From Marsupella aquatica (lineage: Eukaryota; Plantae; Marchantiophyta): DNA of 64,000 nucleotides. A program made the translations under genes and the position numbers. The stretch covers positions 11,223,875 through 11,287,874 of the forward strand of contig OZ316891.1 of assembly GCA_973895155.1 (NCBI GenBank). Direction: 5' to 3'. Shown one piece after another: positions 26,801 to 64,000 of the stretch (position 1 is the stretch's first letter; the number at the start of each line of letters is the position of its first letter). The notes beneath the pieces were generated by a model. That model did no database searches. It was not told the DNA's origin and was given only the letters and a program-made list of their open reading frames with translations.

Positions 26801-27241
26801 CTGGAACCACCTCATAAGATCTATGGTGTGGCTCGTTGGATCTGGCTCCAAGGTTTGTGCTATGGCTACACTGGGTGGACCCCCCTGCTCAACGGGTCCC
26901 TCAGGTGCAAATGCCTCCTCTAAGATTGATCCTGCCTCTGCAGCTCGGTACCTCCTCAAGTGCTCAATATGCTCATGCGACATGTCAAGTAGCCAATGAA
27001 TAATCGTGGCATGTGTCGTATCCGGATCACCTCCCAATAAAAGCCTCAACTCCTCCCACTCATCCCACCGCTCAAGTGGGACCCGGATCGGAGGCTTGGC
27101 ATCTGGTCTCCTCCTCTTCTTGTAATCTATGTCATCGCTTGGATACTTTGGTCTCGAAGGACCACCACCCCGAGGAGGACATCTACGACGGGCAGCCAGA
27201 AGGTCAGGTGGCTGTCCCTCGGGATCACCTGCTGTACTCAT
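23855..27241 (-). CDS. Multi-exon Kolobok-type DDE transposase with N-terminal Cys/His finger and an inserted Rho-N/SAP-like helical motif
   Basis: C-x4-C...C-x4-H finger (25423-25983 ORF); YLDCRWDSSRSGYHGT (D1), EVIHDDNS (D2), KDLWHKAK, SETFHSVMGKFATKRIHF..ARLFCAALDWNEN (E). GT-AG junctions between the catalytic-region exons (~25427/25312, 24933/24829, ~24581/24479, ~24324/24212) keep the frame; 5' exons less certain. Confidence 0.8.
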
Positions 27242-42820: not shown

Positions 42821-43949
42821 GACTTAATTCGCTTAACCCAAGGCAGTCAGGACGGCAAGAAGGTTAAGTCCCCTTTGTAAAGACATCTGAGTGGGACGTC
42901 CACCATTTCTCAGCATAAACGGCCAAGAGAGACCGGGAGGAGCCAAAAGAGGCTTGGATTTTACCTTGCACATATGTAAGCTTCCACAGTCCTAGTGGAT
43001 CAATTGTTTGAGTTTTTCTTGTCTACATTGTATTAAGGCCAAAGTAACCTTGGAAGATTACATGAATAGATACAAAAGACTTTTGTTATAGTTTCATTTA
43101 TCATAGTGAATTGTTGTCCATGATCCACAAAGAAGGTTGTTAGTTTGTCACCTTGATCAGCTTGCCCAACCAAAGGGCCCAATGTGTAGGCACAACCACA
43201 TCAGCTAACAAGGGGAATTTACAAACGATAGCAAACAGATAACAGTAACAGGAAACAGATTCTGGTACCAGTTAAAAGGAGCTGTTACCAGTGAACAGTG
43301 TTTGGATGGTCGTGAACAGTTATCTTAAAAAAGGTCTCAAAATCTCCATTTGAAAGTACAAGAATAGAAAACAAAACCACCAAACCCTCGTGATAAATAA
43401 AAGAACAACAAGGAAACAATTTTTTGAAACATAAAAGACGGTTGCCAATTGAGATACACAAAATCCAAGACAAATACAAGTAGAAAAGAAAGGCCAGAAA
43501 AAACATTCGCATATATTATCGCAAAATAGAAAATGCGCTCGGCTTAAGTGATACAAAATGCAGTTATCAACATCAACAATCTGGCCTAAAAATCCCATCC
43601 ATGAAGTCACGGTCGACACCGTTGGAGGTTTTCGACTAATACATGAACAGCGCTCGGCGCTAGCCAAAAACTAACTAGAAAACTAGTCGTTTCTTGGAGA
43701 CAAGATGCGTCCAAACCCAGACAACATAGTCAAGATCCATTCCCTCCCACAAAATCCATTGTCGTTTCAATAGTGCCCGGCGCTAGCCAAAACCTAAATA
43801 GTAGACAACCGGGAAAACTCTAACACCAGAGCTGAGGTCGACTTCAATGCCACAAAATCCGGAAAACTTTAGCAGCGCCCGGCGCTAGCTTAAAGCGATC
43901 AGCAAAAAAAAAATTCCATCTAGCTTTTCGAGTTGCAATCATCATCCAC

Positions 43950-44381
43950 TCATGCTGCTTCTCTCCGCCGATCTTTCTTGAAGCCGAGACCACGCAAACA
44001 AATGTATCCCTCTGAAGGTCCTCGACGAACAGCCCTCATAAAATGTTCATTAGGAATATTACTGTCCTTAAAATCAACTCGCCCGAACATTTCTTGTACT
44101 CTTCGATCGATTGGGAGTACCCCATCAACAAGAACTCCCGGGTGAGACGAAAACTGACTAGAGAACGGAGGCGCAGGGGAATCGACAATCCAAGGGATGT
44201 TCTTCTCTCCAGGACTAATAGCCTCATCATACAGGAGAGCATGACGGTTCCGAAAAGTGGAAGTTTCAGTTTCTTTAGTCTCCATCCGCGATTCAAAAGA
44301 GCTGAAATGGCTCTCTTCCGGACGCACACGAGAAGGACGAAAAGCTGCCTCCCAATCCATTGGCTCATATTGACTCACCAT
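43950..44381 (-). CDS. Hypothetical 143-aa ORF inside the MULE (unknown function)
   Basis: ATG-initiated ORF located between a palindrome cluster and the 13-bp array; no recognisable domain. Confidence 0.35.
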   Translation of the reverse strand: MVSQYEPMDWEAAFRPSRVRPEESHFSSFESRMETKETETSTFRNRHALLYDEAISPGEKNIPWIVDSPAPPFSSQFSSHPGVLVDGVLPIDRRVQEMFGRVDFKDSNIPNEHFMRAVRRGPSEGYICLRGLGFKKDRRREAA

Positions 44382-44529
44382 GTTTCAAAGATCCCGATCT
44401 AATATGTAACCTCTCCTCCCGTAAGAACGTCGTCCGCGAGTGCTATAGCCGACAAAGGTCAAAGAAAGGTCCGCGAAGACTAAGACGCCAGATAAAGGTC
44501 CGCGTACACTACCATTCCGAAACGACCAT

Positions 44530-44880
44530 CAAACTATCATCGTCCCATTCTATTGCCTCCCGTAACTATCTTCGCCTTGGTAACAGGTATCGTCCTGTTC
44601 TATCGCCCTGCTCTAACATCCCGTTCTATCGTCTTCCCAAAACAAAGTCTTCCCAAACAAACTATCATCCCGTTCTATCGTCACGTTCTATCGTCCTCCC
44701 GAAACAAAGTCTCCCCTCCCGTTCTATTATCCCATTCTATCGTCCCGTTCTATCGTCCCGTTCTATCGTCCCGTTCTATCGTCCCGTTCTATCATCCTCC
44801 CGAAACTATCGTCGTCCTCAACTATCGACGTCCCCAACTCTCATCGTCCCAAACAAACCTAAACTGAAACTATAGTCGTC
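44530..44880. repeat. Tandem array of a ~13-bp unit (CTATCGTCCCGTT)
   Basis: Near-perfect copies at ~44738-44795, degenerate copies either side. Confidence 0.9.
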
Positions 44881-45217
44881 CCTTCCGCCCGGTCCCTAAA
44901 CTATGGAATCATCGTCCAGAAACTATGGTCCCCAATGGCTTTCCGACGACTGACTAAAGAACACAATCCAAATGGCAGTTGGTATCCAATGACGATGACC
45001 GTTGACCCCGCCGTTGACAGGAAACGACAAAGACTAAACGGCCATTTAGAGATTCCATTTGGCGAGCGCCAGGCGCTTGTAAAGAACAAAAGTCAAAAGT
45101 AATCAACAAGTAGAGAGAAATCAACAATTTAAAAGGACCCTCAACAGAGAAAAATAATACAGATGTTACAAGCGCCGGGCGCTGCTAAAAGATTTAGCCT
45201 CAACTACCCACTACTTC

Positions 45218-48200
45218 TCACGGCTCTGAAGATTCTGAGTCGCAACCAGAATCTGTACTCTGGGATCTGTCCGTGGACACAGCCTCATCATCTACGTACT
45301 GGCTGCGGGAGAAGTCATCAACATAAGGATGTTTAATGAACTTTCGGTCAACACCCCTTCGTAACCGAAGACCTTTGTTTTCCCAGCAGAGTGTCCTTGC
45401 ACTTTCTGCTTTCCTTGCGGCTTTCTCTGCATAGGAGGGAAGAACAAACCGTTTTTCCGGTGTTTCTACGTTGTGTCTCGCGATCTTCCTCCGCAGTTTG
45501 AATCGTCTCCTTGCATTCCACTCTGACCTGATAGAACAAAGTCCATTTTGTAAGGCGCCTTTCCCCAAAACAACAAAAGAAATGTTATGAATTGACGGGA
45601 ATGGAGAAAGAAGCTTACGAGTTTCATCTGCAGTTGCACGACGCTCTCCCTTTTCCTCCTCGGAGTTTCTTGTACCTTGTTCCTCTCCACCTTCACTCAA
45701 TTCATCATCAGAATCAAAATTGAGAACCGACCAAAGCTTATCTCTCTTTTTTCTGTCGGCAGTAGGAACAGGTGGAGGTAACACTGCAATCTCTTTGGGA
45801 GACAACAAATCCATGAAAACCTTTGAAGCGGTTTCAATAAATTCTTTCCGGTGTTCTATCCTGAGTACAAATCGTCCAGAGAAGTCGCCAACAATGTAAG
45901 AGCTTCCAGCCCCAACAGTCCAATCCATAAAAATATCACGAGGCCGTGTGACAAGCTCTATAACAGATTGCATAAAACCCACAGACAGACGAGCATTTCT
46001 AGCAAACTCCATTTGCGGGAATGGATCTAATTTGAGTGAAGAGAGTCCGATGAAATTGGTAACCGAAGGGTCCTCACTGATGGACAGCGGCCGAAATTTG
46101 GGGTCTTTGGGAATTTTACATTTCCCATTAATTCGGCCAAATATGTCGAGCCTGAGGGTAAACATCTCTCGATCTGTCTTTGCCGCATACATCGGGTCAG
46201 ACATCACAATATTATGCGAGCATATACACTGAAATTTCCTTGACTCCTGACAGGCAGCAATGACTTGCGACATGGGATCGTACTCCCTATTGTGTAGAAT
46301 TACAAGGAACCCATCATCTGATAAAAATGGATCCATGGATTTGAAAAAAGATCTAGCCATTGAGTGATCTGGAATGTTCCATTTAGGAACCTTCTTATCA
46401 ATGATAGATGGTTTGAACCCGGTCGGTAGGTAAATGAAGCCGGCATCCACTCCAAACGATCTTACTTTTCCCCCCCGAACAACTCCCTTCTCTTTAAATC
46501 CCAACTTAACGAGGTCTTTTCCCCATTTCTCCACATCACTAACCCACTCGGGCTTCTCCTCCTTGTTGAACGTCGAGTCAAAAAATTCAGAAAGGCTTGT
46601 CTCAACCATGCAATGGCGAGACACAGTTGTTTTGAAGTTTCCAACTTCACGTTGGAAACCAGAAGCTATAACACACTCCCTTAAAGATTGTCCACCTTCG
46701 ACAGCTCTCTTTCGTTTCTTCCTGGTACTCGTGGCGTCGATAGGAACTATAACCTTCCCTTTGTCGATTGGAGTAATGGGGTCCGATCAAGCTCCCATGT
46801 TTGCCTCGGAAACTTCAGGTGTAGCATCCTTTTTCGTATCTCCCGTTCCCACCGTATTAGACTTCCTCCCTCCTAAAATATAACCAGGTCGTAGTTAGAA
46901 TAAGTACTTTTAAAGTATTGAAAGAAGCTAGCGCCTGGCGCTAACCAAATGCAATTCACTTAAGTCGCAACCGAAGCCTAATAACCAAGAAAGAGAATAC
47001 CCTCAACATAATATTTTTTGCCAGCGCTTGGCGCTGGCAAAATCATGGATAGCAATACTTACTCTTCTTTCCAGATTTAGTAGACTCGCTCGGTGCTGCT
47101 AGCTCCACTTTGGCTTTCGCGCGAGGTTTGCGACTCCGGTCCACATGCACAACAGTTGTTTCACAGATAGTTTGCAAGTTTGTGGCAGACTTGTCTACAT
47201 CGTCAAGTAGACCCTGCTTCATGTCGGACACAAGTTTTGCTGGCATCTGAGACTTTGAAAGCTTATGGAAGGCATCTTTTTCCCTTTGATCAAAAGGAGA
47301 ATCCCATCTATCTGTATCTAGATACCAGGGGCAGTGAGTTCTCTCCCATTCTGTCATTGGTCTCGGAGGAAATATGCCCTCCGTGGGGTACATAGAGTAC
47401 AAATCAGCCAAGGCATCATCTTCACTTATTGAAATCCACTTCATAAAAGCTGCAGGATATGCCCAGAAGTAATCAGGTTTGGTTACCTCCATGTGCATGT
47501 AGAACCTATACACAAACCTCTTCGCTCGCTTCTGGTTTCTCTGGGTGTAATCTTCTTTGTCAGGGTACTTTGAAGGCCACATAGTGTGAAAGAACTTATT
47601 CTTCATGGAATCACCAAATCTCTTGAATTCATTTGTAACAAACTGAACTAGATCATCAAACAAACTACAATTCCACTCTTCCAATCTAATCGCGGGCATG
47701 GTTTGCTCAACTTCACGTAGACATGAATGTAACATGCCAGCAACAATTCCCTCCACACTATTCCAAGTGATCCAAGTGTGGCACCACTGTTTGACTGGAT
47801 CATCGTTAACACTTGCTGGGTGAAAAAACTGTCTCCGCAGCTCAGGATTGCAATGTGCCACAAGTAAAGTGCTTCGTAACTTTGGGTCTAGAGCAGAAAC
47901 AGCGGTGAACAATCGTGCGCGGTCCATCGTACATACAACGGTGTCAGGCTTCTTCTCTCTCTTGTTTCTCTCTGTGACAGCATACATTTCTGCACATGTA
48001 CCGAGGAAATCTTCAAATTCAGGACTTAATAAGGGCATAATTTTTGAAGACTTCACTGCCCAATCTTTGGTTGCGTCTTTCATCATGGCCGCATGCCGTT
48101 TTGAAATCTCATCCGCCGACCATGGACTCCCTTGAGCCTCCGCTGCCTCCATGTCGAGTTTGAATTGATGCGAGTATGACTTTATCTTATTCTCACAAAG

Positions 48201-49272
48201 AATGTAAACAAGTGCTTCTTGTGGCATCTTCTTCGTATACCATGACTCCTTTCGAGTTTTCAGCCGAATGCTTTCAAACTTCTTGAAATTACCCGGGTCA
48301 ATCAGTTTACTGTAATACTCAAGGTCATGCGCCAGAATTCGTTTGATTCTGTCCGCATCCAGGATCCAGGAAGGCTCTACAACTGCTTGGCCAAGCCTAC
48401 ACGAACAAACGTTGAGAGTAAGAGTCAATGAAAAACAATTCATATATAAGCAGCGCCGAGCGCTAGTAAATACAACACTCGCAAGATTTAAGGAAAGAAC
48501 TGGAAATCATGAGAACTTACTGATTCACGGTGTGCATAGCTGCCTCAATTTCAATGAGAGATCCCTTGTCTCCTTTAAATATTGTACAGAGCACACAAGG
48601 ATGATATTTTGGATTGTCCGGGTTCTCCTCTGTTACAAGCGTCCAGGAGTACAGCCTGTGATTTCCATCGAATACAGAGAACATCTTATCCTTCAAGACG
48701 AGAAAATCCGGGTCAGCCTCGCATTCAGCCTCAAACTTCTCATTCTCCAATTGCCATATTGGATCCCATGAATCACGAATGTCCTGGGTACAGGTCAGAA
48801 CAATTCCGTTCTCATCCGTTGGCTGCACATAGAAACGCATCCCTATCGAAGAGTTGTAACCCATACTACGAAAAGAGTCTTTCAGCTTCTTGATGGAAGA
48901 GCTATCTTTCTGCAGAGTACGAACCACCTCCATGTGAACCAATCGATACAGAGGGATTCGAGGCGGCTCCTTGTCAAATCCACGAGAATCCTTTCCAAAA
49001 GACATGACATGTTTCGAAATGAGATCAGTCTCAGCAAGCGCGCAATCCACAACATCCTGGATCGCAATTGTGTCTACGTTGTCCATCTTTCTTCGCAAAG
49101 GATTTGGACCCAAAACACCGCTGACAGAAGTGAGCGGCAACAACTTTGAGGAACGAGTTACACGACGTGTATAGACTGAACCAGTAAACGAAGACTGCGA
49201 AGATTCAGAATAAGCTCGCTCCTGGTCAGGAACCGCACTATACCCTCTGGAAGAAGAGGGGAATACCTCCAT
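45218..49272 (-). pseudogene. ParB/sulfiredoxin N-domain + helical region + beta-class DNA amino-methyltransferase-fold protein; exons ~49272-48521, 48396-47063, 46872-45218; one premature TGA
   Basis: IPLYRLV..VVRTL...IKKLKDSF...FSVFDGNHRLYSW (ParB-N). VDAGFIYLPTG sits at the DPPY position, followed by VIELVTRPRDIFMDWTVGAGSSYIVGDFSGRFVLRIE (motifs X-I-II). GT-AG introns in frame; in-frame TGA at 46787-46789. Confidence 0.75.
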
Positions 49273-50182
49273 CGTCTTCCTTCTAGAAGCGTATGAACTA
49301 TCGTACAATGAAATTATGGAACTATAATCATCTCTGAACGTGTAATATATTCTAGCGGGAGGATGACATAACCTAGAGGAAAGCCATTAGCTCTGATGTT
49401 TGGCGGTTTCCAACGTCTGTATACGGAAGGTTTAATTACCAAAATCAAACGGTAGAAGATGCGTAACACACACGGAAGTCATAAGTTACCGTTGAATGTT
49501 ACCGTTAAAGACATTTCCTAACATCATATCAATACTAGCGTCGGGCGCTAGCATTAATGATGACCATCAAGGTGAAAAATTTAGAGTATGCTTATAATAG
49601 CGCCCGACGCTAGTATAAACTGGAAGAAATTTAGAGGTCTTTTTTGAAGGAGCTATGACATAAATTTCGGCCTTTCCACCCCCATATTTTATTAAAGTAT
49701 CCTTCAGTACATCGTTTACGGAGAAATATTCCTCAAATGTAATACTAGCACCCGACGCTAGTATAAATGTTCATTTATCATCCATAATCCATCAAAACCA
49801 TCCTTTGAAGGCACCATTTATTCCCAATTACCACCTGGTATGTGGTCATAATGTTCATTTTCAGGGAATTTATTCTATACTAGCGCCCGGCGCTAGTTTG
49901 GAATGTCGAGATTTCAGACACATTTTTAGTGGCGTATTTTAGTTAGCGCCAGGCGCTACTAAAATTTGACAATACCTTGTCATATCTTATGGTCTGTTTA
50001 AGTAAGGTTGGTGATCATTTTAGCAATATGTTCGTGTCTGACATCCGGACTTCTCGGGGAAAAAACGACAAAAATCATTTATGGTGCCAACGGATCCTCC
50101 ATCGTCAATGTTTTATGTCGTATACAAACGGATCGGTTAACGTCAAATTCCCAGGTTCGACAGATATAAGCTGAACAATACC

Positions 50183-53100
50183 ATGATTTTTTCTTCTTTC
50201 AAACGCTATAGCCCTCGGTTTTTGTTTTTGTTCACCATGTCTCGGTCTATCATTCTTTCTCGATTCGGTTCTAAAGATATTGTGACTATCCCTGTCCCCA
50301 TGAAAGATACGTACAAGCAGGTCCGGGAGAGGTATCTCTGCGGGAGATTTGATTTGAAGATGAATGACATTGAGGCCATTGGTCGAGAGCTCGAATCCAT
50401 TGATGATATCGAGGATGCTGCAACGTTCAATGTCAATGACGGTGAACGGTTTTGGCATCTCTACGCAGGGATCTCGTACTCGGTTCGTTTAAGACAGCAT
50501 GCAGGATTGTCCAGTTTCCCACCAGTTCCATGTGATGTGGTTGAGATTTCTTCAAGTGAGGATGGAGATCGTACTCTAAGTCCACCGTCAAAGAAGAAAA
50601 GCCCGCTCCCTACTGTCATGAAAGCTGAGACTTCGGGAAGCTGTAAGCAGTTGGAGGTCGTGTACCGGCGCAGTGCGATGGATACGTTACTCAAATCAAC
50701 TGGTCATAGTGAGTTGTCACGGTTCATATCAGCGGGTGATTTCAGGCATGAACAAGTGTCCTGTCTGCCAGCTAAGTACAATGGTAACGTCGTGTTTGAG
50801 TTGCCGCCCATTGATAAGATGCTCTCTAAAGGCTCTAGGCTTAGGGACATGGATCGTGCCAAAGATTGTTACATTTGGACACGCATATTTCCAACAATTG
50901 CAACTGTTCATCCTAAAAACCTTTGGCAGTTTGGGAAGGTTACCTGTACGGGATTCATTGAATGCAGGAACAAGTCCTGCGACTATTTCCAAAGGAAGAA
51001 GAAGGCAAATGCTAAGGCATGGCAGGGTACTCCAAAGCTCAGTGGTCAGTATGCTGTGGGATCTTTCATCGAAGAGGGAGGTGTTGTTTGTCATTACTGC
51101 GAACAGATTCCTTTTTGTGTGAAGTACTGCCCTGCCCGTTTGTTTTACATGTACCCCCAAGTATTACTTGATGCGGAAACATGTAGTCATATGTCCCGCC
51201 TGGCAATTCATATAGGTGAGCACAACCATCCAGGTAGAAAAACCTTTTGTAGGAGTGCGGAGAAGATAGCTGAGGATCTAATTAAAAAAACATGAAGCCA
51301 ATCCTCTATCAAAACCGGCAGGGATCTTGAATTCTACTACAGGGTCCTTAGTGAAATCTCTCTGCGAACATGTTGACGACATGGTCGATATCGAAGAAAC
51401 TGAAATATGGAAGTCTCTGATGGTCCTTTCCACTCCGCAGAAGTTTGCATCTCTTTGTCGGAGCGTTAGGATAGACCAAAAAGGTCGGGGTGAATTAGAT
51501 TTTCTCTCGCAAATGCAGAGGAGGATTCATGTGTCATTTCTCCAGAGGTATTTGCTTCCAGGTCAGGGATGTTAGAACGATAGGCCTCACATCTTTAAAA
51601 TGACCGTGAAAGGTCACGGTTCCGGTGTGGATCTTTTGAGGCAGATGCAACTGGGTGGAAGACTCGAAGGAGCCTGGGTAAGTTTTGATGTGATGCAGCG
51701 TGTCACTACGGATTGGTTTACTTTCAGCACACATGTCTACGACCACAATTTCCGTGCACTGTGTACAATTTTCACATGCGAGTTGAAAGGTGAAGACACT
51801 GAGTCTTTTGAAAAGGCATGGAGAGTGATGATTGAGGTTTGCAAAGAAAATGAACTTCAGGAGGTTGTCATCCAAGGATTTATGGCCGACAATGCACAAG
51901 CTGGATGGAATGCAGTGCAAAATGTTTTTTTTGGTGGACACCCGGACCCGGAGAGGGAGCGCTCTGATGCATTTCACTTTTATCAATCTTTTCATTGTCA
52001 TTCCAAGGAAGGAGTACTGGAAGAATGTCAATCGGAGCATCGGAGACTTTGGGAGAAACTGAGAAATGCTCCATCATTTGAAGTAGCATACCGGGTGTCC
52101 CGAGAGATTGTTGTGTGGTGGCAATCAGGAAACTGTGTCCCCGGAAAGTTGAAGATGCTGCAAAGCTGGATATCTTGGTGGGTTGTTCGCTGGCGCCAGT
52201 GGGGCAATTTTATTTGAGTGGTAAGGCATCCATCTATCTAGACTGTAATGTTCATCAACTTCATATTAGCGCCAGGCGCTGGTTATTTTCTCCATACACG
52301 TCAAAACAAGTAGTACAAGAAATTGAAGCAAATATGTAGTTAGAATTCAGTATTAAACATTGAAATTGTATTTCAGGCCTGTTCTACATATTTATGTTGC
52401 CAGCGCCGGGCGCTGGTAATAGAATACTACTTACGGTTGACATTTTCGTATGGCAGAGCAAAAGCGCTGAGGAAGGTGCCTTGATCCCCAACTGTACAGG
52501 GTCAGAATCAAGGCATGCGTCCATGAAAGCCTCGGCTACAAAGAAAAAGGTCGGTCTTTATGAAGCTTGCAAAGTTGACCAAAACCGCGTCATCCGCGTC
52601 GTGGTGTTCAGAAGCTTCCTCCTTTTCCTGACATTTTGCCTGTTCTGAAGGGTCTTCTGAAATTACATTCCTGGAAGAGCAAGGACTTGTCTTAGTGTGA
52701 ACAACAGGATTGAGTCGATCTGCGCCATCTGCTTTTGACCTCAGGATAAATGTTAACGTGTTCCCAGAAACAATAAGGTTTTTGGAGCCGAATCTCCAAC
52801 TTGGTAGTCGGAATGGGAGGAACTCAAGGCCTCGGTCTAATCTCACTGTGGGTCACATGAAGCGAATGGAGTTTGCACGACAAGAAGTGATGAGTTTGGA
52901 TGGGGAATGGAATGTTCAGACCGGAAATGCTTTTGGAAAGCAATTTCGAATTCAAACCCATGAGAACCATCGATCACCAAGCACATACTTCGTCCAAATT
53001 TGTATCTTCCCCGCTTGCTCTTGTGAAGACTTCTTCCTCCGACATTCGCGTGGCAAGTTGTACATGCCTTGCAAACATCTATACTGGGTGTACATAAATG

Positions 53101-53204
53101 TTTTCAAACTTGAGATTGAGGAGTCGACTCTTTGTAGCCAACCTATTTTGACTTTAGGCAAAGTCAGGCTTGTGCTGGAGAGGCAGAACTTGAATGGCTT
53201 ATGA
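50183..53204 (+). pseudogene. MULE-type transposase with GCM/WRKY-like N-terminal Zn domain, DDE core and SWIM finger; disrupted
   Basis: CTGFIECRNKSC...CHYC...CPAR...HIGEHNHP; WVSFDVM, FMADNAQAGWNAV, FHFYQS, SESRHASMK; CSCEDF..CKHLYWV. Frameshift in the A-run near 51285-51295 and in-frame TAG at 51573-51575; intron(s) at ~52220-52456 and ~52550-52745. Confidence 0.85.
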
Positions 53205-54775
53205 GAGAGATCAAAACTGCCCAATAGGTCGTCGTTCAATATAACGGTTATTCCCTATTTTGTCTTTTTCCAACGAATATTTTAGTTGTTTTATTGAGAC
53301 TTTGTTGGTTAGCGCCGGGCGCTGGTTCTAGGAAACCGAATATTCATTGCTTCATTATGTACGTGCATTGTGGAAGAATGACCTCTTGTTTTATTTAAAA
53401 TGTGTAAGTTGATTAAATTGTCTACTGTCTTCAAAGCCTCGAGGATGTGATTTGTCATTTGTTTGTGACGTTACAAGGTCCATTTAATCAACTCCTTTAG
53501 ATTGGGTTGATTTGGACTCCACGATTGACATGTGCTATGGTGGGTCCCACTCTAAGGGTCACTATTTGGCGATGAAAATAGATTGATTTGCATGAATGTT
53601 TCTTTAGGCACACTCCTAATACCATGTTTTTTATCTTCTACAATAAATTGTTGTGTCAATGGAGGATTGATAGTACACTTCATCCATCGGATGGCACAAA
53701 ATAATTGTTTGTTTTAAACTTTATTGCCCCCCGAAAAATTATGCCATTAGAGTGGTGGATATGCACGTTATGGTTCAGGCAAAACTGGTAACAGGGACAA
53801 GCTTACTGGTAACAGGTACAATTTCCCTGTTAACAGAAAATAAACCCCTGGTAACAGGTTTTCTGTTTTCTGTTTTCTGTCATGGCTATCATACCCGCTA
53901 ACAACTATCATGGCTAGCAAAAGCCACAACTCAAGAGGTCCACATTACTGATTAACAAAAATAAATGAAGAATGAATTTGAGTAGTGCAGATCTATCAAA
54001 CGAGGATCGTCTTGGTAGTAAGCATGTGTGTTTGTGAGTGGCAAACTAAATGTGGACTTGGTTGTATTCTAACTGTTTCAATACTAACTCGTGCTTGTCT
54101 TTGAAACCCACTTTGTTTACCCACTTCGGAATGCATTTATATGCATGCCCATTGCATTATTTACCTTGTGTTAATATTTCAAAACATAATTATAGCTTAG
54201 GTGGCCCCAATTCATGCACATTTTTCCCTAAAAAGTGCCTATCTATGGCAAATTAATAGTAAGATGTGCCCCGGTCAGTCAGAACTGAATCAACTGCACA
54301 ACTATTTGGGAGATGTATAATATAATAAATGAAGTAGCTGACCGGGTTACAAAAATTACAAATGACTAAACATAGTCTAAATTCAAGTTCATGTCAATTA
54401 TATAGGTCAGATTCATTTCTTCTCTGGCTATGGAAAATTCAAAGACATTCTGATTAATGAACTAATTTAGTAACCTAGGTGTCCCTTGTTCATGACGCCC
54501 ACCTTGGAAAGAAGGCGTGAGTCTCTCAAGTACTAACATGTCTCATCACAACATTTACCTGCAAAATAGAAAGTAAGGTAATTGTTAAACAAACAATAAG
54601 AGTTCAATCAAAGGCAAGACAAACAAAGAGTCTAATCCATAGCGAACTAACAGACACATGCAATATACATTAAACCCAAACTAATAAAGATAATACAACT
54701 AGCAATTATATCTACTTTAAGATTAAAATAAAATGTAATACGTCATATTTTATAAGTTCCCTATAAAAACTTACT

Positions 54776-56625
54776 TCATGTGTGGCCAGTTCTATTTCTG
54801 ATAGTCTGGAGTGTCTGGTCCAAGGTATTCAAAGCCCATGACCTTTCTTTTGGCAAATCATTGAAATTTAGTTGTTGATGTACATAGGCTGTCAACCCCA
54901 TAGTGGCACAAGAACTACTTTCACATTCAAGAGAAAGCAGCAAATGCATTCTGAACTTGTCCTCCTCCGATGAGACTCCAATCTGATTAGTTTCATATGC
55001 AAAATCACGAATATCACGAAGACTCTGCACCAAAAAAAAAAATTTGGTGAATTGGAAATTAATAAAAAAGAATATGCAACCAAATAAAATACATTTTTCT
55101 TCACTTACCTCATCGTCTAAATCTTTAACACCATGTTCAAAGTTTCCATGATCATCATTATGATTCCAATAATCAGTGCCAATAGTCTCGATAATATCAT
55201 CTGCATCTTGAATATCAACTTGACCTTCTTCAGGATATGGTGGAGTTAAAACTATTTTAGATTCTCTCTCTCTTGCTTGAAAAGCAAGTTGAGGAATGTG
55301 TGATGGCCTGTTCACACCTCGTTCTCGCACCGCTCTCACTGTATGGGCATTCCATGTTAGAATGATATCATTTACAGTATTCTGAATGAATGGAAGAAGT
55401 ACAGTAACAATGGAGTATCTATGCAAGGGATTATCCATTTGCAAAAATCCTTCCTCGTATGATAGAGTACGAAATAAGTCCTTATAATGACCCAATCCTT
55501 GTTTCTTCAAGAATCCCCAAAATGCTTCGATCCTCTGTAAAAATCACAATGATTGTAAAAAATTAGTATGTTCCTTGAAATTATTTTTCCTTTTATAAGT
55601 TAAAGCCACAAAAACCCCGTGGCAGAGGGGCAACCAGGCCATCAAAAAGCCAGCTAAACAACATGACCCCTGGGAGGGCGGGCATAAAGCATTAACAACG
55701 TACACAGACAACAAATCAGCATCGCGGCCAATGCAACATTGGGCCCCCATAAGTCCCATAGGCAAAAACTTAGTATGTTACTAAACATATCAAGCAAATA
55801 ATTTTGATAACATATAGTTGAGTTTAAGTACTACCTGATTATGAACTGAAGAACCTTTGCAAAAACAATGAGTATTTGGTCTTGCCCTTTCAAGATTATT
55901 TTGGACCAAAATATGCTCAGTCACATAATCAGAACGAATTAATAAAGGATGACCAAATCTTTGAACCGCATTTTTATACACTTCATAAATAGTCCGGGCT
56001 TTCTTATTTAATGCAACATGCATATAATATAATGTGTAGCTCCATCGATAGCTCCATGAATTATAATTCCATAATTTGCTAATTTGTCATATGCAACACA
56101 AGAAATTAAACAAAATTAGTACATCATTTCATGATCATGAACAAACTATCTGAATCATATATAGTCAAAAAATGATTGATTCAATCTAAATAAAAGGATA
56201 TAAATACTTGAATTTTACTCACAGTCCATATGCCAAATATGCATTGCTTTGGTGACATCGTAAACCCGACGTATTAGACATCCGTGTGCTCTTGATGCAA
56301 GTAATCCTGGAACTAAAACATCCAAGGCATCACGTACAAGCGTTCTTGGAACTTTGTATCCATCTCTTTGTAATCGTGCCTTTATCATTCTTATTCCCCA
56401 ATCTTTTGCATATCCATATATGGGAATAAACTCTAGAATCAATTGTCGAACCTCCTCAAGCGTATATGTTGGATACATTTTCTCTCCATTATTAAATACT
56501 TTCAACCATCGCCATAAAGTAATTCGATCTATTCCAAGTGCTAATGCACATTCCTTCATAGTGTAACCAATGTGAAGTGCTGCCATCACATCTTCACACA
56601 TTGAATTGATGTTTGTTGCATCCAT
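54776..56625 (-). pseudogene. IS3EU-like (HTH + integrase-core DDE) transposase, spliced, disrupted
   Basis: HTH ALALGIDRITLWRW; GIRMIKARL..G.KVPR; RRVYDV...WHMD; YDKLANYGIIIHGAIDGATH; GHPLLIRSD..TE; GSSVHNQ|RIEAFW; WNAHTVR. Frameshift at ~56025 and a non-canonical acceptor at ~56095. Confidence 0.8.
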
Positions 56626-56998
56626 ATATTTCCCAAATATTCTCCAAAACTCCAATGAACTAATACTTTATTTTGCCAGTGTATAATTCCACCTTTTTTA
56701 GAACAATTAGAGAACTCTGTCAGAAAAACAAAGGTCACAAGACAAAAAAACCAAGGCTAGTTAGAAAATGTACACTAAGTTGCCATTGCACATACAATAA
56801 AGTAGGAATATTTTTAGCAAAAGATACCATGGATTTACAAAGGATTTGAAAACTATGGAGGATTCTTTGGTATATTCAATGCCCCAATTTAAGCTCTTGA
56901 GAGCATCTATTACAAAAATAAGCAAAGATACAAATGGGCAAACAAAATCAATATATAACATTAAAAATTCTGCTCATTATCATGACTATGAATCATGT

Positions 56999-58330
56999 TT
57001 ATGCATTTTCATTTGAAAATGTGTAGGCACCACCTAGCTTCTCATTAATTGCAATCCCAACTACGTATACCGGTTCTATAGGGGAACATCTGTACGAGGT
57101 GGCGTGCATATCTTTTCCACAAATAAAGAAAATATCCCCATCTAATATTGGAATCTTTATTCCATACTCAATAACAACTAGATGTCCACCTCGTTCCTCC
57201 ATTGAAGGATTTGATGCCATGAACATAGTGTATTTACTACAATCATGATCATTATGAACTATATTACAATAGTTCTTTGTAAGAAATAGAGGATATGTTG
57301 GTACAGCATGTTTCACAACGTTGGGCTTGGAAAAGTATTGAAGTAATTCTTTGCTTAGATCCATGAAAGGATCTTTGCAATCCAAAAATTCCCTCACTAC
57401 CGGCCAAAAATAATCACAAAATAGTAGGAAAATAATTTCAAATAAGATTCGATGGGAGCATTGCTCATGAATTAACTCCAATTGCAATGTGCTAATTGGA
57501 GTTGTTAACTTATCCCTGTAGTAACTCACAAAATGTGCTCATTTTCCTTCTCTCCACTTCATAAGTGGCCCCACAGCTCGGATTATTTCAATCAATGCTG
57601 ATCTCGAATCAGCTCTACGAACAGTCCATTTGTGATTGTAGGCATCAATTATTGAATGCCTTAGAAATGCTCGATCGCCCTCTGGAACAACTCCTTTCAT
57701 TCGTCCCCCTATTATTTCATTGGTAGACCTATCTTTCCAAATTTCAATAGATGACAAGGGATCCATAACATAAAAGTTACTTAGTATCACCTTCCATACA
57801 ATATGTCGTTCTGTTTTGGGTGGGCTAAATCCTCTCTCAATCAAGAAAGCATTTTTATGTTTCACAAGAAACTTAGGGCTTCTCTTCGCAAATGTCTTTA
57901 CTGGGATTTTATGTTCTTCAAATTTTTCAAAATGATCTGCCTTCCGATTTATATATAAAATTGGATCTTTACGAAACTTTCAGACCCTGGTGGCAATCTC
58001 ATTCCCAAGCGAAGATAGATTGTACCGGAAAGTGATCAAGTGGACTATTGTTTTCCACTGATTGGCAGTAAAATACTCAGACCAACGACTGGTTTTCCCC
58101 AAGAAGTGAAAACCAGAATAAAATTTTGATAACTCTCCCTTCATTTTCCCACCGGAAAAGATGTGCAGACCATATTCAAAGAGTAACCAATCACTGAGCA
58201 ACCATTTCAGTAAAAACTGAATATGTAATTTTCCCAACTGAGATGTAAGAGTGATGAGCTCATAGAAATAAATAGCAGTAGGGAAGACCAACAATTGTTT
58301 CTTTGACATAGAGGCTGCATTTAGCGTCAA
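56999..58330 (-). pseudogene. TET/JBP-like 2OG-Fe(II) dioxygenase gene (~440 codons, one frame, two premature TGA)
   Basis: ORFs 57980-58330, 57539-57865 and 56999-57529 share one frame, separated only by TGA at 57980-57982 and 57539-57541. C-terminal VHNDHD (HxD)...GGHLVVIEYGIKIPILDGDIFFI...MH fits the DSBH pattern HxD..GGxL..G...GD...H. Confidence 0.6.
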
Positions 58331-58569
58331 CCTGTGTTTTCAGTTGAAGACTATCTAAGAATGCGAACAATTCAAGCCGGGAAGCAAGCATTGTGGACCA
58401 ACGATGACAACATAATCAAAGAAATCAATTTGTAGTGGCTAAGTTTGTGACGGTGACGAGATTGTGATATCTCTTAATCGAGAAAGGGTTTCCAATGAGC
58501 CTCAATTTGACAAATTTTGTCAAGTTCCATATGAGTTTTTGAATTTCTTTGACTTTCCAATGAGTATGA

Positions 58570-58960
58570 GTATAATAAATTTTGATCATGAGTTCATGAA
58601 TTCTTTTAGCTTTCTAACATTGAGTCCAACATTGACAAATTCATGTCAGATTTTGTCACGGTACTCAAGAGATCAGGAGATTTTCAATCTCTTTAACTTT
58701 CTAATGTGTGACATTGAGATTATTTGTCAAGAAATAGAGAGATCATGAATATCTAAATTTCTCTAACTTTCCAATGAACCTAACATTGATAGATTTTGTC
58801 ACTATTAAGGAGATGATGAGTTTTTAATTTTACTCTAACTTTCTAATGAGTGTGACATTGAGAGATTTTATCACTTGAGACATTACTAAAGAGATCATGA
58901 GTTTCTAAATCTTGATCTTGAATTTTCTAATGAATCAAACATTGGCAGATTTTATCAAGT
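58570..58960. repeat. Degenerate ~75-bp tandem repeat upstream of the dioxygenase-like gene
   Basis: gagatca(t/g)gag...ctctaactttctaatga...acattga recurring at ~58585, 58670, 58740, 58810, 58891. Confidence 0.75.
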
Positions 58961-59710
58961 ACTAAGCGAATTTATTATTTAGTTTTACAATGTGAAGCCA
59001 AAGGGATTTTAAGTATCTACATTTACAATTAAAAAATACAAGAATTTTGATATAAAACACTAATATATTTGTGACAAATATCAAAATGGTAACTTTGTTT
59101 TACTAAATGACATCTCTTCCTTTGTATTTTGGTTTTTTTTACGTTTAATATTTACGGCATGGCGCCCCAAAAATTACGTTGCTTTTGCCACAAACAGGAA
59201 TTGCACGTTTGTTAAAAGTAGGATCATTCCTGTTTGTGGCTGGTTGTGATGATGTGGCGCAACCTCATGGCAGACAATTTGCAAGAGACCCCTAATGGGG
59301 GTCCGTAATTACTTTATATAGCCTAATCTTTAGGTATGTCTATTTCTTGACATAATTATTTTGGATATTGTTTGTATTAACGTATTCCAAACTCCATCAA
59401 CAAATACAAAATTGAAGTATGCAAATTGCATGCATGCAACAATAGATGAGGCAAAAAGAGAAATGGTCACCTCGTCACCACAAATTAGCCAGTTTTCCAA
59501 ATCCAAAGTTGTCTTCAAAATTGATATCTCTACACTTTCCAAAAAATATATCAAGCTTAAGGTCCCATTGGCCATAATACAAAATCTAGTGGATCCAAGT
59601 TACTATGAGTCCTCCAAAATATTCTCAATAAAATTTAGAATTTTTCACTCTTTTGTCCTTTCCTAATTTGATGGCCTATGGTTTTAGTCAAAGAGTCTAT
59701 TGGATAAACT

Positions 59711-60397
59711 TTAGAGCCAAGAAATATGATTACGAACAGGGGTCTGCAAAGTGGGATCAATGGGATGGAGATGACAATAGAAGAACCATTTGTCAACTCC
59801 ATGGGCACTATGATCATATATCTTTTGATCGCAAGCATATCCTTCTGCCTGACATTCCTTCAAACAATAAAAATGCCACATTGTGGGGCATCAAATGCAA
59901 TGGACAATATCTGTCCAATTTAGGGCATCATGTTCACCACATGCCTTGCATGTATGTAACGGGCAGATAGGGGTGTGTGATGGCAGACACGCACCGCAAA
60001 AAAACCTTACACAAAATCTATCTGAACATTTTTGAACATATTGTGGAGAGTCAAGAGAACCCTCCAAATTCCCTAACTTTCCACATTGGGCACACTTTGC
60101 ATGTTTATGCATGCAGTCTTTGCACTTCCACTTCCCATGTTGGCCAGAAGGTGGGGGAAGGCCGACTCTTGGACAATTATTCTCTGCTGCATGCAAAGAT
60201 TGTGCATTGAGATGGAAGTGCCTCAAGCATGGTCCATCACAAATGACTAACTCTCCACCATCATCACAAATGGCACAACAATGGGCTGCTTTTTGGTAGA
60301 TTTGTTCGCGTGAAAACTTCAAAACATGTGGTCCAAACACAGCTGAATGTCTCACCTCGCCCTTATCTTTTCTACATGGTTGTTTAGGACGAGCCAT
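59711..60397 (-). pseudogene. EDM2/NSD-type tandem PHD-finger region (one premature TGA)
   Basis: CAICDDGGELVICDGPCLRHFH...WKCKDC...CAQCGKLG...CPLHTCKACG...CI*CPTMWH..C...FFYCHLHPIDPTLQTPVRNHI; the last part matches the EDM2 motif YC.xH.ID..L.TP.R.HI. TGA at 59891-59893, TAA at 59711. Confidence 0.8.
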
Positions 60398-60554
60398 GCC
60401 TACACATCCATAAAAAAAATTAATTGTTAGAAATCATAAAAAATTAGGATAAACTCAGAACTAACAAATCATCAAAAATACACAATAATACTACTATTCA
60501 ATGAGCTATTCAAGATTCATGTACAAATTAGTTGCATACTTCAATCTATATAAC

Positions 60555-61985
60555 AAGTCCAAGTACATGTTGTTCTCTTAGCCATGCAGGTCTCACACAA
60601 GATGCTGGTATGATAAGAGTCGCGGCTGCCAAATGTCCCTTCTTTGAACTACTCATTAACAAAATTAATATTCACTAAGGAAAGCATGGTTTGAGAGATG
60701 GAACGCAAAATTTCTAGAGCCACATTCCCTTACCAGAATGGGACCAAACTTTGGTTGCACATACCCCAGGTAGTAGACAACGTGCTCGTGAAGTAAGAGC
60801 ACCAACAAAGCTTTGGTTGAGAAATGAAAAATCAGAGCCTTTGTGGGGTACTCTTGCCTCCTAAGCAACCTCTGACTTCTCTCCCTTGCCACTATTCAAA
60901 CCAGCTCTGACTTGCTAAATCTGCAACCAAGTCCAAGTGCATGTTTTCCTCTTAGCCAGGTCCCTAACAAGATGGTGGTTCATAAGAGTCGTAGCTGTCA
61001 AATGTCCCTACTTTGAAGTACTCAAAAACTATCGTTCGTTAAGGGAAGAAACATTTAAGAGATGGAAGCAGAGGGCGAGGAATTTCTGGAGCCACATTCC
61101 CTGGGCTGAATGGCACCAAACTTGGCCAGCACGTACCTCAAGTAGTAGACAATGTCTTGGCAAAGTAACAGGATGAAGGGAGATTTCAGTGAGAAAATGA
61201 AAAATTGGATGCTCCGAGGCGGTCCTCCTGCCTCCCAAGCCACCTTTGAATCCTCTCCCTTGCCACTACTTCGATCAGCTCGTACTTGCTAGACCTGCAA
61301 ACAAGTCCAACTACATTGTGTTCTCTTAGCCACTTCCCTAACAAGATGGTGGTGTCACAAGAGTCGCAGCTGTTGAACGTTACTGCTTTGAAGTACTCAG
61401 AAATCAATCGTTCTGTAAGGGAAGTAACATTTAAGAGATGAAAGCTGGGAGCGTGGAATTTCTGGAGCCACATTCCCTAGGCAGAATGGGACCAAACTCG
61501 GCCAGCACGTACCTCAAGTAGTAGACAATGTCCTGGTAAAGTTACAGCATGAACAAAGATTTCAGTGAGAAATGAAAAATCGGATGCTCCGAGGTGGTCC
61601 TCCTGCCTCCCAAGCCACCTTCGAATCCTCTCCTTTGCCACTACTTCGATCAGCTCGTACTTGCTAGACCTGCAAACGAGTCTAGCTACATTGTGTTCTC
61701 TTAGCCATGTCCCTAACAAGATGACAGTATCACAAGAGTCGTAGCTGTTGAACATCACTGCTTTGAAGTACTCAGAAATCAATCGTTCAATAAGGGAAGC
61801 AATGTTGAAGAGATGGAAGCAGGGAGCATGAAATTTCTGGAGCCACATTCCCTAGGCGGAATGGGACCAAACTCGGCCAGCACGTACCTCAAGTAGTAGA
61901 CAATATCCTGGTAAAGTTACAGCATGAACGGAGATTTCAGTGAGAAATGAAAAATCAGATGCTCCGAGGAGGTCCTCCTGCCTCC
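60555..61985 (-). repeat. ~375-bp tandem repeat (~4 copies), open as a 125-codon repeat on the minus strand
   Basis: Marker cacattccct at 60721, 61093, 61469, 61844 (periods 372-376). Confidence 0.9.
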
Positions 61986-63399
61986 TTACCAGCTTCAACT
62001 TCTGCTACTTGCCAAGTCTATTTCGACTTCTCTCTTGCAAGGATTCAAAGGAGTGTTCGACCAAGTTTGAGGGTGTGTCATCAGGTTCAATAACTTTAGT
62101 GTGTGACAAATGTTGGCCGCTGATTTTGTTGGCAGCTCATCTCCCTCCTCAGGTTGGGTTGAAATGAATTGCACTCCTGATACGTACGCTTGAAAGCCCT
62201 AGAAATAAAAACACATATAAGAAATCTCAATGGGTATGGCTACCTTGTTTGGGAGCCTACTGAAGTTACTTAATTTGTCCTATTGAGATTTTGTGTTTGT
62301 GTTTTTGTTTTGAATTATTTTGTAAGATAACCATAAGGAACATAACCATGAAAGGCTTAGTTTACAAGGTTCCTTAGTTTTGGTTACCTTATGTTAATTA
62401 AAGAACATCACCATCAAACCCAAACCCAACCACCCGACATTAGTGGATATCAATGTCATAAACCCGGAGGACGTTGCAAGAATTTTGTTAGTTAATTAAG
62501 TTCATATGAAACCAAATTAAACTGTTCCTGAAGACCTGGACCCACGTATTGGTTATTGGTGAGAGTAAGGACTACCAGAATATATTTTATATAGAAAGCA
62601 GGTGCAACTTTGATTTAATTTTATTTAATAATGAGAGTGGTTATGCTTTTGTTTGATTACACTTTTCTTCTATGTGAAAGTGATGTGTCCTTTGTGACTG
62701 GCCCTTAGAGGAAAAGTAACTGGGAAGTCCAATATGGAAGTAAGAACCCAGTATGTTCTTGGTGGATGATCAACAATCCTGGGTCACGTCAATCCTATGG
62801 TGGAAGAGGTCCAAATTCCATTCACCAATGATGACTACAATAATTTCCCACCGGGATAGAAATTTCCACTTGTACCCAATCTTTATCCTCTGGTTTTAAT
62901 TGAGTTGTAGGGTGAGTAGGGAACTAAAGATGCATATGGTTGGCACAATATGCTTGCAGTGTTATTTTCAGATTAGAAAGGGAACAAATATAATTGACTT
63001 GTTGAGGAAGCACGGGTGGGCAAAGTTTTTATCAAATTTAAGTTTTTGAAAGTATTTAACTAACATTGGGGCACATTTGATTGATTATATTCTGAACTTT
63101 CTTGATATCTCAAGGAAATCATTTTTAGATCATAATTTAATATCTAGAATCAAATCTGAATAAAATAGTTTAACTACTTTAATGAAAAGGTTCAATCACA
63201 TAAAAAAAAGTTCTCGTCCTTCTGAAAATTTTCCAGGGAACCAAAAGAAACTTGTCGCTACTAGGGAAATAGTTTAGGGTTAGCCAAATTTTTTGCTTAG
63301 CGCGCCCTAACCTATTAGCCTTCAATCAATAAATAAAGTGGGTTTATTTATTTGTGGTGTTTGTTGGATTGTTCAGATGACAAGTATAACCACCTTATT

Positions 63400-64000
63400 C
63401 ACTACAACACTACCTACACCTTTTGCGAACTTGAAAGCATCGCAAACAACAAAGGAAATCAAAAAACAAAACTTGCCTTTGCGAAGTATTGCGCATCGCA
63501 ATAGAATCGCAAACTGCGAAGCCCAAAGGTTCGCATCCGGTCTTTCGCAAGACCTTCGCAACGCCTTCGCAACTTGCGACACTAATAGAATCACAAAGGA
63601 CTCACATTTAAGCGACTCCGTGGGTGTCGCGAGAGGCTTGCGATAATAATCAAGCAGTTCAATATTTGCAATCCCAGGAGTTTGGTAATATGTTTGCGAT
63701 ATTAAGTGAATGGTAGTTATGCCATGAAGATCGCTTCGCATTTTTGTGAACTTATGTGGTTTGCATAATGTTTGCGATACCTTCAGTATGGTAAATATGC
63801 GATTTGGGTTGTTCGCATAGGTTTCACAAGATGTCTTGAGGCTAGGGTTTAGATTTAGAGTTTTGAATTATGGTTGGGGTCTTGTTGTCCAACACGGAGA
63901 ATGAGGTCTGAATCAAAATTGCTTTATAGAAAATTGATAGGTACACAAAAATTAGGGTTTCCTAAACCCTAAACCCTAGATGGGTGTCATATGACAAGCT
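63400..64000. mobile_element. Left terminus of a CACTA (EnSpm) element
   Basis: CACTACAACA at 63400 followed by many direct and inverted TTCGCA/TGCGAA subterminal motifs to ~63820; runs off the window. Confidence 0.65.
63953..63979. repeat. Short telomere-like (TTTAGGG/CCCTAAA) tract
   Basis: tagggtttcctaaaccctaaaccctag; a similar tttgggtttagggttt tract at ~7516-7531. Confidence 0.6.

What the first reader, a model, noticed from the sequence alone, without database searches (positions are those of the whole stretch)
54776..62150. IS3EU-like integrase co-oriented with a TET/JBP-like dioxygenase and a PHD chromatin reader
Seen: three to four consecutive minus-strand genes (125-aa repeat ORF, EDM2-like PHD fingers, HxD...H dioxygenase, HTH-DDE integrase), all lightly pseudogenised to a similar degree. 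Established: TET/JBP genes travel with Kyakuja/Dileera/Zisupton and Plavaka transposons in fungi; land plants are generally regarded as lacking TET enzymes; EDM2 PHD fingers read methylated H3 tails including H3K9me. Inference: one mobile unit with a heterochromatin reader plus a base-oxidising enzyme, i.e. a transposon-borne anti-silencing kit. Termini were not found, so physical unity is unproven.
Basis: partly seen in the sequence, partly recalled or inferred. Interest (0 to 1): 0.86.

Follow-up and report, generated by a model that had tools for sequence, protein, structure and literature searches.

The report
Liverwort transposon carrying TET-like enzyme gene
A broken jumping gene in what is likely a liverwort sits directly beside a broken gene whose intact relative is predicted to fold like the TET enzymes that oxidise methylated DNA, a class reported as missing from land plants, and the two likely travel together, although the ends of the element were not found.

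Summary
Partly confirmed. On the minus strand there is an intron-split HTH-DDE integrase of the IS3EU/GingerRoot type (Pfam rva_4). It starts 373 bp downstream of a dioxygenase pseudogene. An intact 54%-identical relative of that dioxygenase, modelled at pLDDT 80.7, matches TET2, CMD1, NgTET1 and CcTet ahead of all other solved oxygenases. The host is probably a liverwort: a flanking gene is 71% identical to Calypogeia fissa. The family keeps HxD...H, but by alignment it lacks the Arg that anchors 2-oxoglutarate (1 of 20 rows, the outgroup), so its chemistry may be non-canonical. The PHD gene is real (NSD/EDM2 type). However, a very high-copy 1-kb segment separates it from the dioxygenase and clips that gene's 5' end, and PHD-like DNA is far more abundant than the integrase. 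The 125-aa repeat ORF is not supported as a gene. No TIR or TSD was found, so one unit is likely but unproven. TET-carrying IS3EU elements are known in fungi, and IS3EU/GingerRoot is known in mosses and lycophytes. I found no report of a land-plant TET. Anti-silencing is inferred, and the unit is CpG-depleted.

The parts
54776..56625 (-). IS3EU/GingerRoot-type HTH-DDE transposase pseudogene; predicted exons 56625-56223, ~56094-55835, 55534-55109, 55024-54776; D-D-E in WHMD, RSD, RIE; frameshift near 56025
   Evidence: Pfam HTH_23 and rva_4; three-frame reading and landmark coordinates; exon model inferred from GT-AG sites, no RNA support
56999..58273 (-). TET/JBP-fold dioxygenase pseudogene, 5' end clipped; in-frame TGA at 57982 and 57541; codons for invariant R (57616), H (57256), D (57250), D (57244), H (57106)
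   Evidence: fold of intact relative P0003
58281..59307 (.). Very high-copy segment with 72-bp internal repeats, interrupting the gene row; right end approximate; no TIR or TSD found
   Evidence: depth spike and loose ends at 58281 in 3 of 4 runs; repeats; end tests
59711..60397 (-). Stand-alone, intronless NSD/EDM2-type multi-PHD gene, 228 codons, one in-frame TGA at 59893
   Evidence: the EDM2 likeness beyond the Pfam NSD-type hits is recalled, not tested
60552..62014 (-). 375-bp tandem array (about 4 units, 70-92% alike); coding status unresolved, not supported as a 125-aa gene

Best explanation
This is a decayed copy of a likely low-copy IS3EU/GingerRoot DNA transposon in a probable liverwort, which likely carries as its own passenger a gene for an enzyme predicted to have the TET/JBP fold and inferred to act on methylated cytosine in DNA. 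Shown: the integrase and the dioxygenase gene lie head to tail 373 bp apart, both are broken here, and the dioxygenase belongs to a diverse family with an intact member and a nearly invariant iron-binding triad. Inferred: intact copies would express the enzyme to oxidise or otherwise modify 5mC and so loosen methylation silencing of the element, as proposed for fungal TET+ transposons. The co-substrate may not be bound as in TET2, because the anchoring Arg is absent by alignment. The PHD gene probably lies inside the same amplified unit (about 55%), but it belongs to a much more abundant gene family, so a dedicated reader-plus-eraser partnership is the weakest step (about 25%).
For: Fold: AF2 model of P0003, pLDDT 80.7, pTM 0.77. 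Foldseek lists only TET-family chains down to rank 26 (CcTet 3.5e-9, CMD1 1.8e-7, NgTET1 2.1e-7, TET2 2.3e-5); the first other oxygenase is at 1.5e-4. VIA-align over 48,161 chains ranks TET2 (Z 16.3, rmsd 4.6, 256 aligned), CMD1 (15.9, 4.2, 246), NgTET1 (13.7, 4.0, 217) and CcTet (13.0, 4.6, 252) first; next is 12.1. The profile's only PDB hit is CMD1, E 0.0026. Triad: H 27 of 27, D 26 of 27, distal H 24 of 24, upstream R 14 of 14 rows with a residue. Linkage hints: integrase, dioxygenase and repeat bins share one depth tier (X3 207-364). In X1 one contig runs from the dioxygenase 3' end to 55 bp before the integrase ATG (56680-57250, depth 304). In X5 a diverged contig joins that spacer to integrase exon 1 (56308-56925). 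In X3, near-identical contigs over the integrase 3' end and the PHD 3' end have similar depth (144, 126). Precedent: every TET+ IS3EU in fungi has the TET gene next to the transposase (PMC12730594). IS3EU/GingerRoot occurs in mosses and lycophytes and carries passengers (PMC6839031; PMC10045372). Host.
Against: No TIR pair or TSD. The TATGG at 53769 is spanned by a contig at the depth of the neighbouring MULE-like element (X3 record 13, depth 604), so it is probably not this element's end. No single contig spans both open reading frames, and the tool warns that depth is no copy number. The fold was computed on P0003, not on the window's broken protein. The window's own piece has no Pfam TET hit, and family members stay below the cut-offs (6 of 23 PF20515, 2 of 23 PF12851). 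The canonical second Arg is present in 1 of 20 rows and the 5mC-stacking aromatic in 0 of 21. CpG o/e is 0.52 (dioxygenase), 0.57 (integrase) and 0.31 (PHD), against 0.70-0.76 in the neighbouring MULE and 0.77-0.93 in three host genes (only 10-33 CpG per region of the unit). PHD-bin depth is 1951 against 207-302 for the integrase in X3, and 162 against 3-9 in X5. The genomic neighbours of all 34 relatives are unknown.
Confidence: 0.6

Rival explanations
1. Only integrase plus dioxygenase form the element. The PHD gene and the high-copy segment are a piece of a different, abundant transposon (or a captured host EDM2-like fragment) that landed on the 5' end of the dioxygenase gene, so the 'reader plus eraser kit' is an accident of nesting.
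For: Sharp loose ends at 58281 in 3 of 4 runs; depth over 59823-60423 is several- to tens-fold above the integrase; loose ends at 59737 and 59745 show PHD-like DNA in other contexts. Dioxygenase homology starts 8 bp from that junction. GingerRoot elements often pick up gene fragments (PMC6839031).
Against: The repeat array beyond the PHD gene returns to the integrase depth tier, and near-identical PHD 3' and integrase 3' contigs have similar depth in X3 (126, 144), which fits co-amplification. The PHD gene is intronless with its own ATG.
Confidence: 0.4
2. The genes are a pile-up of unrelated decayed elements in a TE-rich region, later copied together by segmental duplication; the dioxygenase is not a passenger of this integrase.
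For: No termini. MULE-like, high-copy and Kolobok-like elements crowd the window. Duplication would also give one depth tier.
Against: Co-orientation with a 373-bp spacer, a diverged copy that keeps spacer and integrase joined (X5), and the same pairing in fungal IS3EU.
Confidence: 0.2
3. The enzyme is TET-fold but not a 5mC eraser. It would use another co-substrate (ascorbate, as CMD1 does) or another base, and write a hypermodified mark. This concerns chemistry and is compatible with the best explanation's anatomy.
For: Missing second Arg and stacking aromatic; family-specific Asp four residues after the first His (27 of 27) and Asn in the last strand (18 of 21). The best sequence match among solved structures is CMD1, which cannot use 2-oxoglutarate because no basic residue holds its C5 carboxyl (PMC7854593).
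Against: An Arg five residues after the distal His (16 of 21 rows) might replace the missing one. Several fungal PU-type proteins also show His rather than Arg at that place (read by eye in Table S1 rows). Residue equivalences rest on spacing and on the P0035 row, not on a superposition that I inspected.
Confidence: 0.35
4. The stretch is fungal, protist or algal DNA misassembled into a liverwort contig, so there is no land-plant TET.
For: The only named relative is from an amoeba (Planoprotostelium fungivorum, E 3e-4). Atlas look-alikes are mostly fungal (weak recognition score). The assembly could not be inspected.
Against: The same public runs hold this stretch at about 99% identity together with the flanking high-copy elements, in runs of two coded organisms. 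GC and CpG depletion resemble the surrounding repeats. The amoebal protein is a long-branch outgroup.
Confidence: 0.05

Closest known systems
TET+ IS3EU transposons of rust fungi and Tuber indicum (Kojima 2025, PMC12730594)
   Same: IS3EU-type transposase with a TET/JBP gene next to it, co-oriented in some families; weak matches of this family to PF20515, and similar motifs around HxD and the last strand (by eye against Table S1 rows).
   Different: Host is a probable liverwort. No alpha-kinase gene was recognised in the window; a PHD gene lies upstream instead. TAYGG..CCRTA termini and 6-bp TSD not found. The protein stays below the Pfam cut-offs.
GingerRoot (IS3EU/GingerRoot) of Selaginella lepidophylla and mosses (PMC6839031; PMC10045372)
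   Same: Integrase-like DDE transposase in non-seed land plants; carries passenger sequence.
   Different: The passages read describe host gene fragments, not a TET/JBP gene; 'liverwort' and 'Marchantia' have 0 occurrences in its main text.
CMD1 on DNA-1_cRei, and Helitron-borne TET/JBP genes, of Chlamydomonas (PMC7854593; bioRxiv 2022.06.16.496473)
   Same: Green-lineage, transposon-borne TET-fold enzyme; best profile hit and second structural hit; non-canonical co-substrate site.
   Different: CMD1 keeps Arg410, Phe416 and Arg418, which align here to Val/Ala/Thr, small residues and Asn; its element has no recognisable transposase; 14% identity in the structural alignment.
EDM2 and NSD-type PHD cassettes (PMC7529245)
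   Same: Tandem atypical PHD fingers with NSD-type Pfam matches.
   Different: Stand-alone 228-codon gene without the methyltransferase-like ELP domain; histone specificity unknown.

Membership tests
IS3EU/GingerRoot DNA transposons | HTH plus integrase-like DDE transposase | tested here: met
   HTH_23 and rva_4 hits; D-D-E motifs
IS3EU/GingerRoot DNA transposons | TIRs with TA..TA (TAYGG..CCRTA) ends | tested here: inconclusive
   No inverted pair above the shuffled null; the far end may lie outside the window or be lost
IS3EU/GingerRoot DNA transposons | 6-bp target site duplication | not testable with these tools
   ends unknown; no genome held
IS3EU/GingerRoot DNA transposons | Phylogenetic placement among curated IS3EU transposases | not tested
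TET/JBP dioxygenases | DSBH core with TET-type surrounding structure | tested here: met
   on intact relative P0003:
TET/JBP dioxygenases | HxD...H iron triad | tested here: met
   27 of 27, 26 of 27 and 24 of 24 rows with a residue (two distal-His rows are ragged ends); present in the window
TET/JBP dioxygenases | First co-substrate/base Arg (TET2 R1261, CMD1 R244) | tested here: inconclusive
   an upstream Arg is invariant, 14 of 14; its structural equivalence is inferred
Canonical 2-oxoglutarate-using TET | Second Arg anchoring the C5 carboxyl (TET2 R1896, NgTET1 R289) | tested here: not met
   Arg in 1 of 20 rows, the amoebal outgroup; sequence alignment only
TET/JBP dioxygenases | Pfam PF12851 or PF20515 above the gathering score | tested here: not met
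   best E 2.9e-4 and 1.4e-3, below cut-off; the window's piece has no hit
TET/JBP dioxygenases | Activity on 5-methylpyrimidines in DNA | not testable with these tools
   needs biochemistry
Fungal TET+ IS3EU | Order transposase - TET - alpha-kinase | tested here: inconclusive
   TET beside the transposase; no kinase hit among the ORFs scanned upstream; the element may extend past the window
EDM2-like proteins | Tandem atypical PHD fingers | tested here: inconclusive
   NSD-type PHD hits below cut-off; NSD3 E 0.08 over residues 37-176; no direct comparison with EDM2
EDM2-like proteins | C-terminal methyltransferase-like ELP domain | tested here: not met
   the frame ends at 59711 and downstream ORFs have no such hit
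EDM2-like proteins | H3K9me2 binding | not testable with these tools
   needs peptide binding assays

The most novel reading that the evidence does not exclude
Liverworts, and perhaps other bryophytes, harbour an old, diverse clade of transposon-borne TET-fold enzymes that lack the 2-oxoglutarate anchor and write a CMD1-like or new cytosine mark on plant DNA, steered to heterochromatin by a PHD reader carried on the same element: the first TET-type DNA base modification system in land plants.
Probability: 0.17. Interest if true: 0.93.

Novelty: new variant of a known kind. Interest (0 to 1): 0.72.

Why it matters
[quoted passage not shown] A TET-fold family in a land plant, with at least one intact member (P0003, host unnamed), names a candidate enzyme and makes that question testable in liverworts. 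It would extend TET-carrying transposons from fungi and green algae to embryophytes. The altered co-substrate site raises the chance of unusual chemistry, as happened with CMD1. If the PHD gene proves to be part of the element, it would be a transposon with both a histone-mark reader and a DNA-modifying enzyme.

Tried and rejected
No whole genome is held, so copies could not be compared. The first structure model from a two-row alignment failed (pLDDT 31). A phmmer search of the window's C-terminal piece against PDB gave only noise. A profile of alignment A3 gave no hit under E 0.07. The word-indexed search with A3 returned only two known rows. Scans for related loci found nothing confirmed: metagenome contigs, viral contigs, prokaryote genomes; tblastn of phages had no match. 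No RNA holder was listed, which is not evidence either way. P0033 was dropped as a false hit (Ig-like and secretion domains). P0009, P0018, P0023 and P0029 were left out of the folding alignment A5 as poorly aligned fragments. P0038 and P0040 were dropped before the counts as near-copies of P0028. P0010, P0032, P0036, P0041 and P0042 were left out of the tree. The candidate terminus TATGG at 53769 was rejected as unproven: TAYGG occurs 2.7 times per kb, its best inverted partner scored 19 against a null mean of 21, and a MULE-depth contig spans it. No TIR or TSD at the ends of the high-copy segment. The repeat ORF gave no Atlas, Pfam or PDB hit. No Rfam match in 53000-64000. The N-terminal 145 residues of the model were barely tested by the fold searches. 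Iyer et al. 2009, 2013 and 2014 are not held.
Full report
Host. No genome is held for the window. An ATG22-like gene at 31257-32747 has one relative at E <= 1e-20 among the 7,998 candidates scored: a Calypogeia fissa protein, 71% identical over 97% of the query. An ORF at 11795-12448 ends in a CLE-like peptide (motif recalled, not tested). The host is therefore probably a liverwort. Six public runs hold part of the stretch, the best four at 0.45-0.47 of sampled words, in coded organisms A and B.

Integrase. The minus-strand gene starts at 56625. It has an HTH_23 match (E 6.8e-4) and two rva_4/PF24764 matches above the cut-off (E 2.8e-9, 3.2e-8). Three-frame reading gives four predicted exons, the residues D (WHMD), D (RSD) and E (RIE), a frameshift near 56025 and no AG at the expected first acceptor. 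It is a pseudogene of the IS3EU/GingerRoot type. That lineage has TA..TA ends and 6-bp TSDs (PMC10045372, passages) and is reported from mosses and lycophytes (PMC6839031, abstract and passages).

Dioxygenase. The frame 58273-56999 has two TGA codons and ends 373 bp before the integrase ATG. One intact relative, P0003 (479 aa, 54% identity, E 4e-154, unnamed Logan contig), was found among 1,637 candidates. A profile search of 1.84 billion representatives gave 34 hits at E <= 0.001. One, P0033, is false. Of 20 clusters looked up, only P0035 names an organism, the amoeba Planoprotostelium fungivorum. In a 22-row tree the window groups with P0003-P0006 (97/97), two other deep groups exist, and P0035 is a long outgroup branch. 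The family is old and diverse, but its hosts and neighbours are unknown.

Is it TET/JBP? Sequence evidence alone is weak: 6 of 23 members touch PF20515 and 2 of 23 touch PF12851, all under the cut-offs. The Atlas look-alikes with a family share the TET/JBP clan, but at a low recognition score. The C-terminal profile has one PDB hit, CMD1, E 0.0026 (E 0.047 with the full-length profile). Structure is clearer. P0003 folded with 33 rows gives pLDDT 80.7. Foldseek lists CcTet, CMD1, NgTET1 and TET2 before any other oxygenase. VIA-align ranks TET2 (Z 16.3), CMD1 (15.9), NgTET1 (13.7) and CcTet (13.0) above the next entry (12.1) among 48,161 chains. The best named viral models are phage JBP1/TET proteins. 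The model is of the intact relative, not of the window's broken product.

Active site. Among rows with a residue, the first His is 27 of 27, the Asp 26 of 27, a further Asp two residues on 27 of 27, the distal His 24 of 24 and an upstream Arg 14 of 14. The position of the Arg that anchors 2-oxoglutarate in TET2 and NgTET1 (PMC7854593, passages) holds Arg in 1 of 20 rows, the outgroup. The base-stacking aromatic position is small in 21 of 21 rows, and the last base-contact position is Asn in 18 of 21. An Arg five residues after the distal His occurs in 16 of 21, a count that includes one misaligned fragment and the outgroup shifted by one. These equivalences rest on spacing, not on an inspected superposition. 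I therefore call it a divergent TET/JBP-fold enzyme, not a canonical TET.

PHD gene. 60397-59711 is an intronless 228-codon frame with one TGA. It matches PHD-1st_NSD (E 2.7e-5) and PHDvar_NSD (E 2.3e-3), both below cut-off, and AIRE and NSD3 fingers in PDB. EDM2 has 2.5 atypical PHD fingers, binds H3K9me2 and has a methyltransferase-like domain (PMC7529245, passages); the last is absent here. A closer likeness to EDM2 is my recollection and was not tested.

Repeat. The 375-bp array has about four units, 70-92% alike. Its pN/pS runs from 0.39 to 1.16, no frame stands out, and searches found nothing. It may be an exon-intron repeat or non-coding; it should not be counted as a gene.

One unit? 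No TIR pair or TSD was found. The evidence is from Logan contigs of four runs laid on 46000-64000 at 80% likeness, where depth is only a hint. Integrase, dioxygenase and repeat bins lie in one tier (X3 207-364; X1 306-1336). The bins covering 58020-59221 reach 27,586-48,050 in X3, with loose ends at 58281 in three runs, 8 bp from where dioxygenase homology begins: a high-copy segment clips the gene. The PHD bin is intermediate (X3 1951, X1 7576, X5 162), so PHD-like DNA is common elsewhere. Yet near-identical X3 contigs over the PHD 3' end and the integrase 3' end have similar depth (126, 144). An X1 contig joins the dioxygenase 3' end to the spacer up to 56680, and a diverged X5 contig joins the spacer to integrase exon 1. 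No listed contig spans both coding regions, and the tables were cut. I put dioxygenase-plus-integrase as one element at about 75% and the PHD gene inside it at about 55%.

Function. Anti-silencing is borrowed from fungi, where it is also not validated experimentally (PMC12730594, parts 1-5 of 7 read; Table S1 rows for 14 IS3EU families). Against effective protection in cis, CpG o/e is 0.31-0.57 in the unit, 0.70-0.76 in the neighbouring MULE-like element and 0.77-0.93 in host genes (small counts, and these copies are dead).

Novelty. TET+ IS3EU elements are published for rusts and a truffle. CMD1 and other Chlamydomonas TET/JBP genes sit on transposons (bioRxiv 2022.06.16.496473, passages). 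[quoted passage not shown] Six full-text searches for a land-plant, moss or liverwort TET/JBP listed no such report; from those listings I read passages of PMC4738411 and PMC13519894, and passages of the review PMC11065753, and judged the rest by title and abstract start. Iyer et al. 2009, 2013 and 2014 could not be read. I have an unverified recollection that those surveys may mention a moss, which would lower the novelty. Supplements of the bioRxiv preprint and of the papers other than PMC12730594 were not seen and could bear on this. Earlier notes of this scan show TET-bearing transposons in fungi, diatoms and Naegleria, none in a land plant; they are unchecked leads.

Verdict. A real TET/JBP-fold pseudogene beside an IS3EU/GingerRoot transposase in a probable liverwort; a new variant of a known kind, in a lineage said to lack such enzymes, with a possibly unusual active site. 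The four-gene anti-silencing kit is not shown. Interest 0.72.

Noticed in passing
window 43600-53330: High-copy MULE-like element (transposase pieces 50141-53204, +). On the opposite strand it has ORFs with a ParB-like DGNHR motif (48517-49386; motif recalled), an unknown 487-aa frame (47043-48506) and a weak N6/N4 DNA methylase match (45218-46786, E 0.089). It is a possible transposon-borne DNA methyltransferase next to a transposon-borne TET-like gene. Ends marked by an inverted 13-bp motif near 43650 and 53310.
   Followed up: partly
window 23855-27346 (-): Intron-split transposase pieces that resemble Kolobok DDE motifs (recalled; no Pfam hit).
   Followed up: no
window 11795-12448 (+): ORF ending in a CLE/TDIF-like dodecapeptide after a hydrophobic segment (motif recalled, no Pfam hit).
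   Followed up: no
window 31257-32747 (-): Intronless ATG22-like MFS transporter frame, 71% identical to a 721-aa Calypogeia fissa protein.
   Followed up: partly
window 58281-59307: Segment of the order of 100 times the integrase depth, with 72-bp repeats and two imperfect hairpins (59044-59087, 59187-59240); family unidentified.
   Followed up: partly
The array may be an exon-intron repeat.
   Followed up: partly
window 1227-1751: Purine-rich 19-bp tandem array, 27 copies.
   Followed up: no
window 63300-64000: Another high-copy element begins here (depth 6,000+ in X1 and X3) and may hide the far end of the unit.
   Followed up: no
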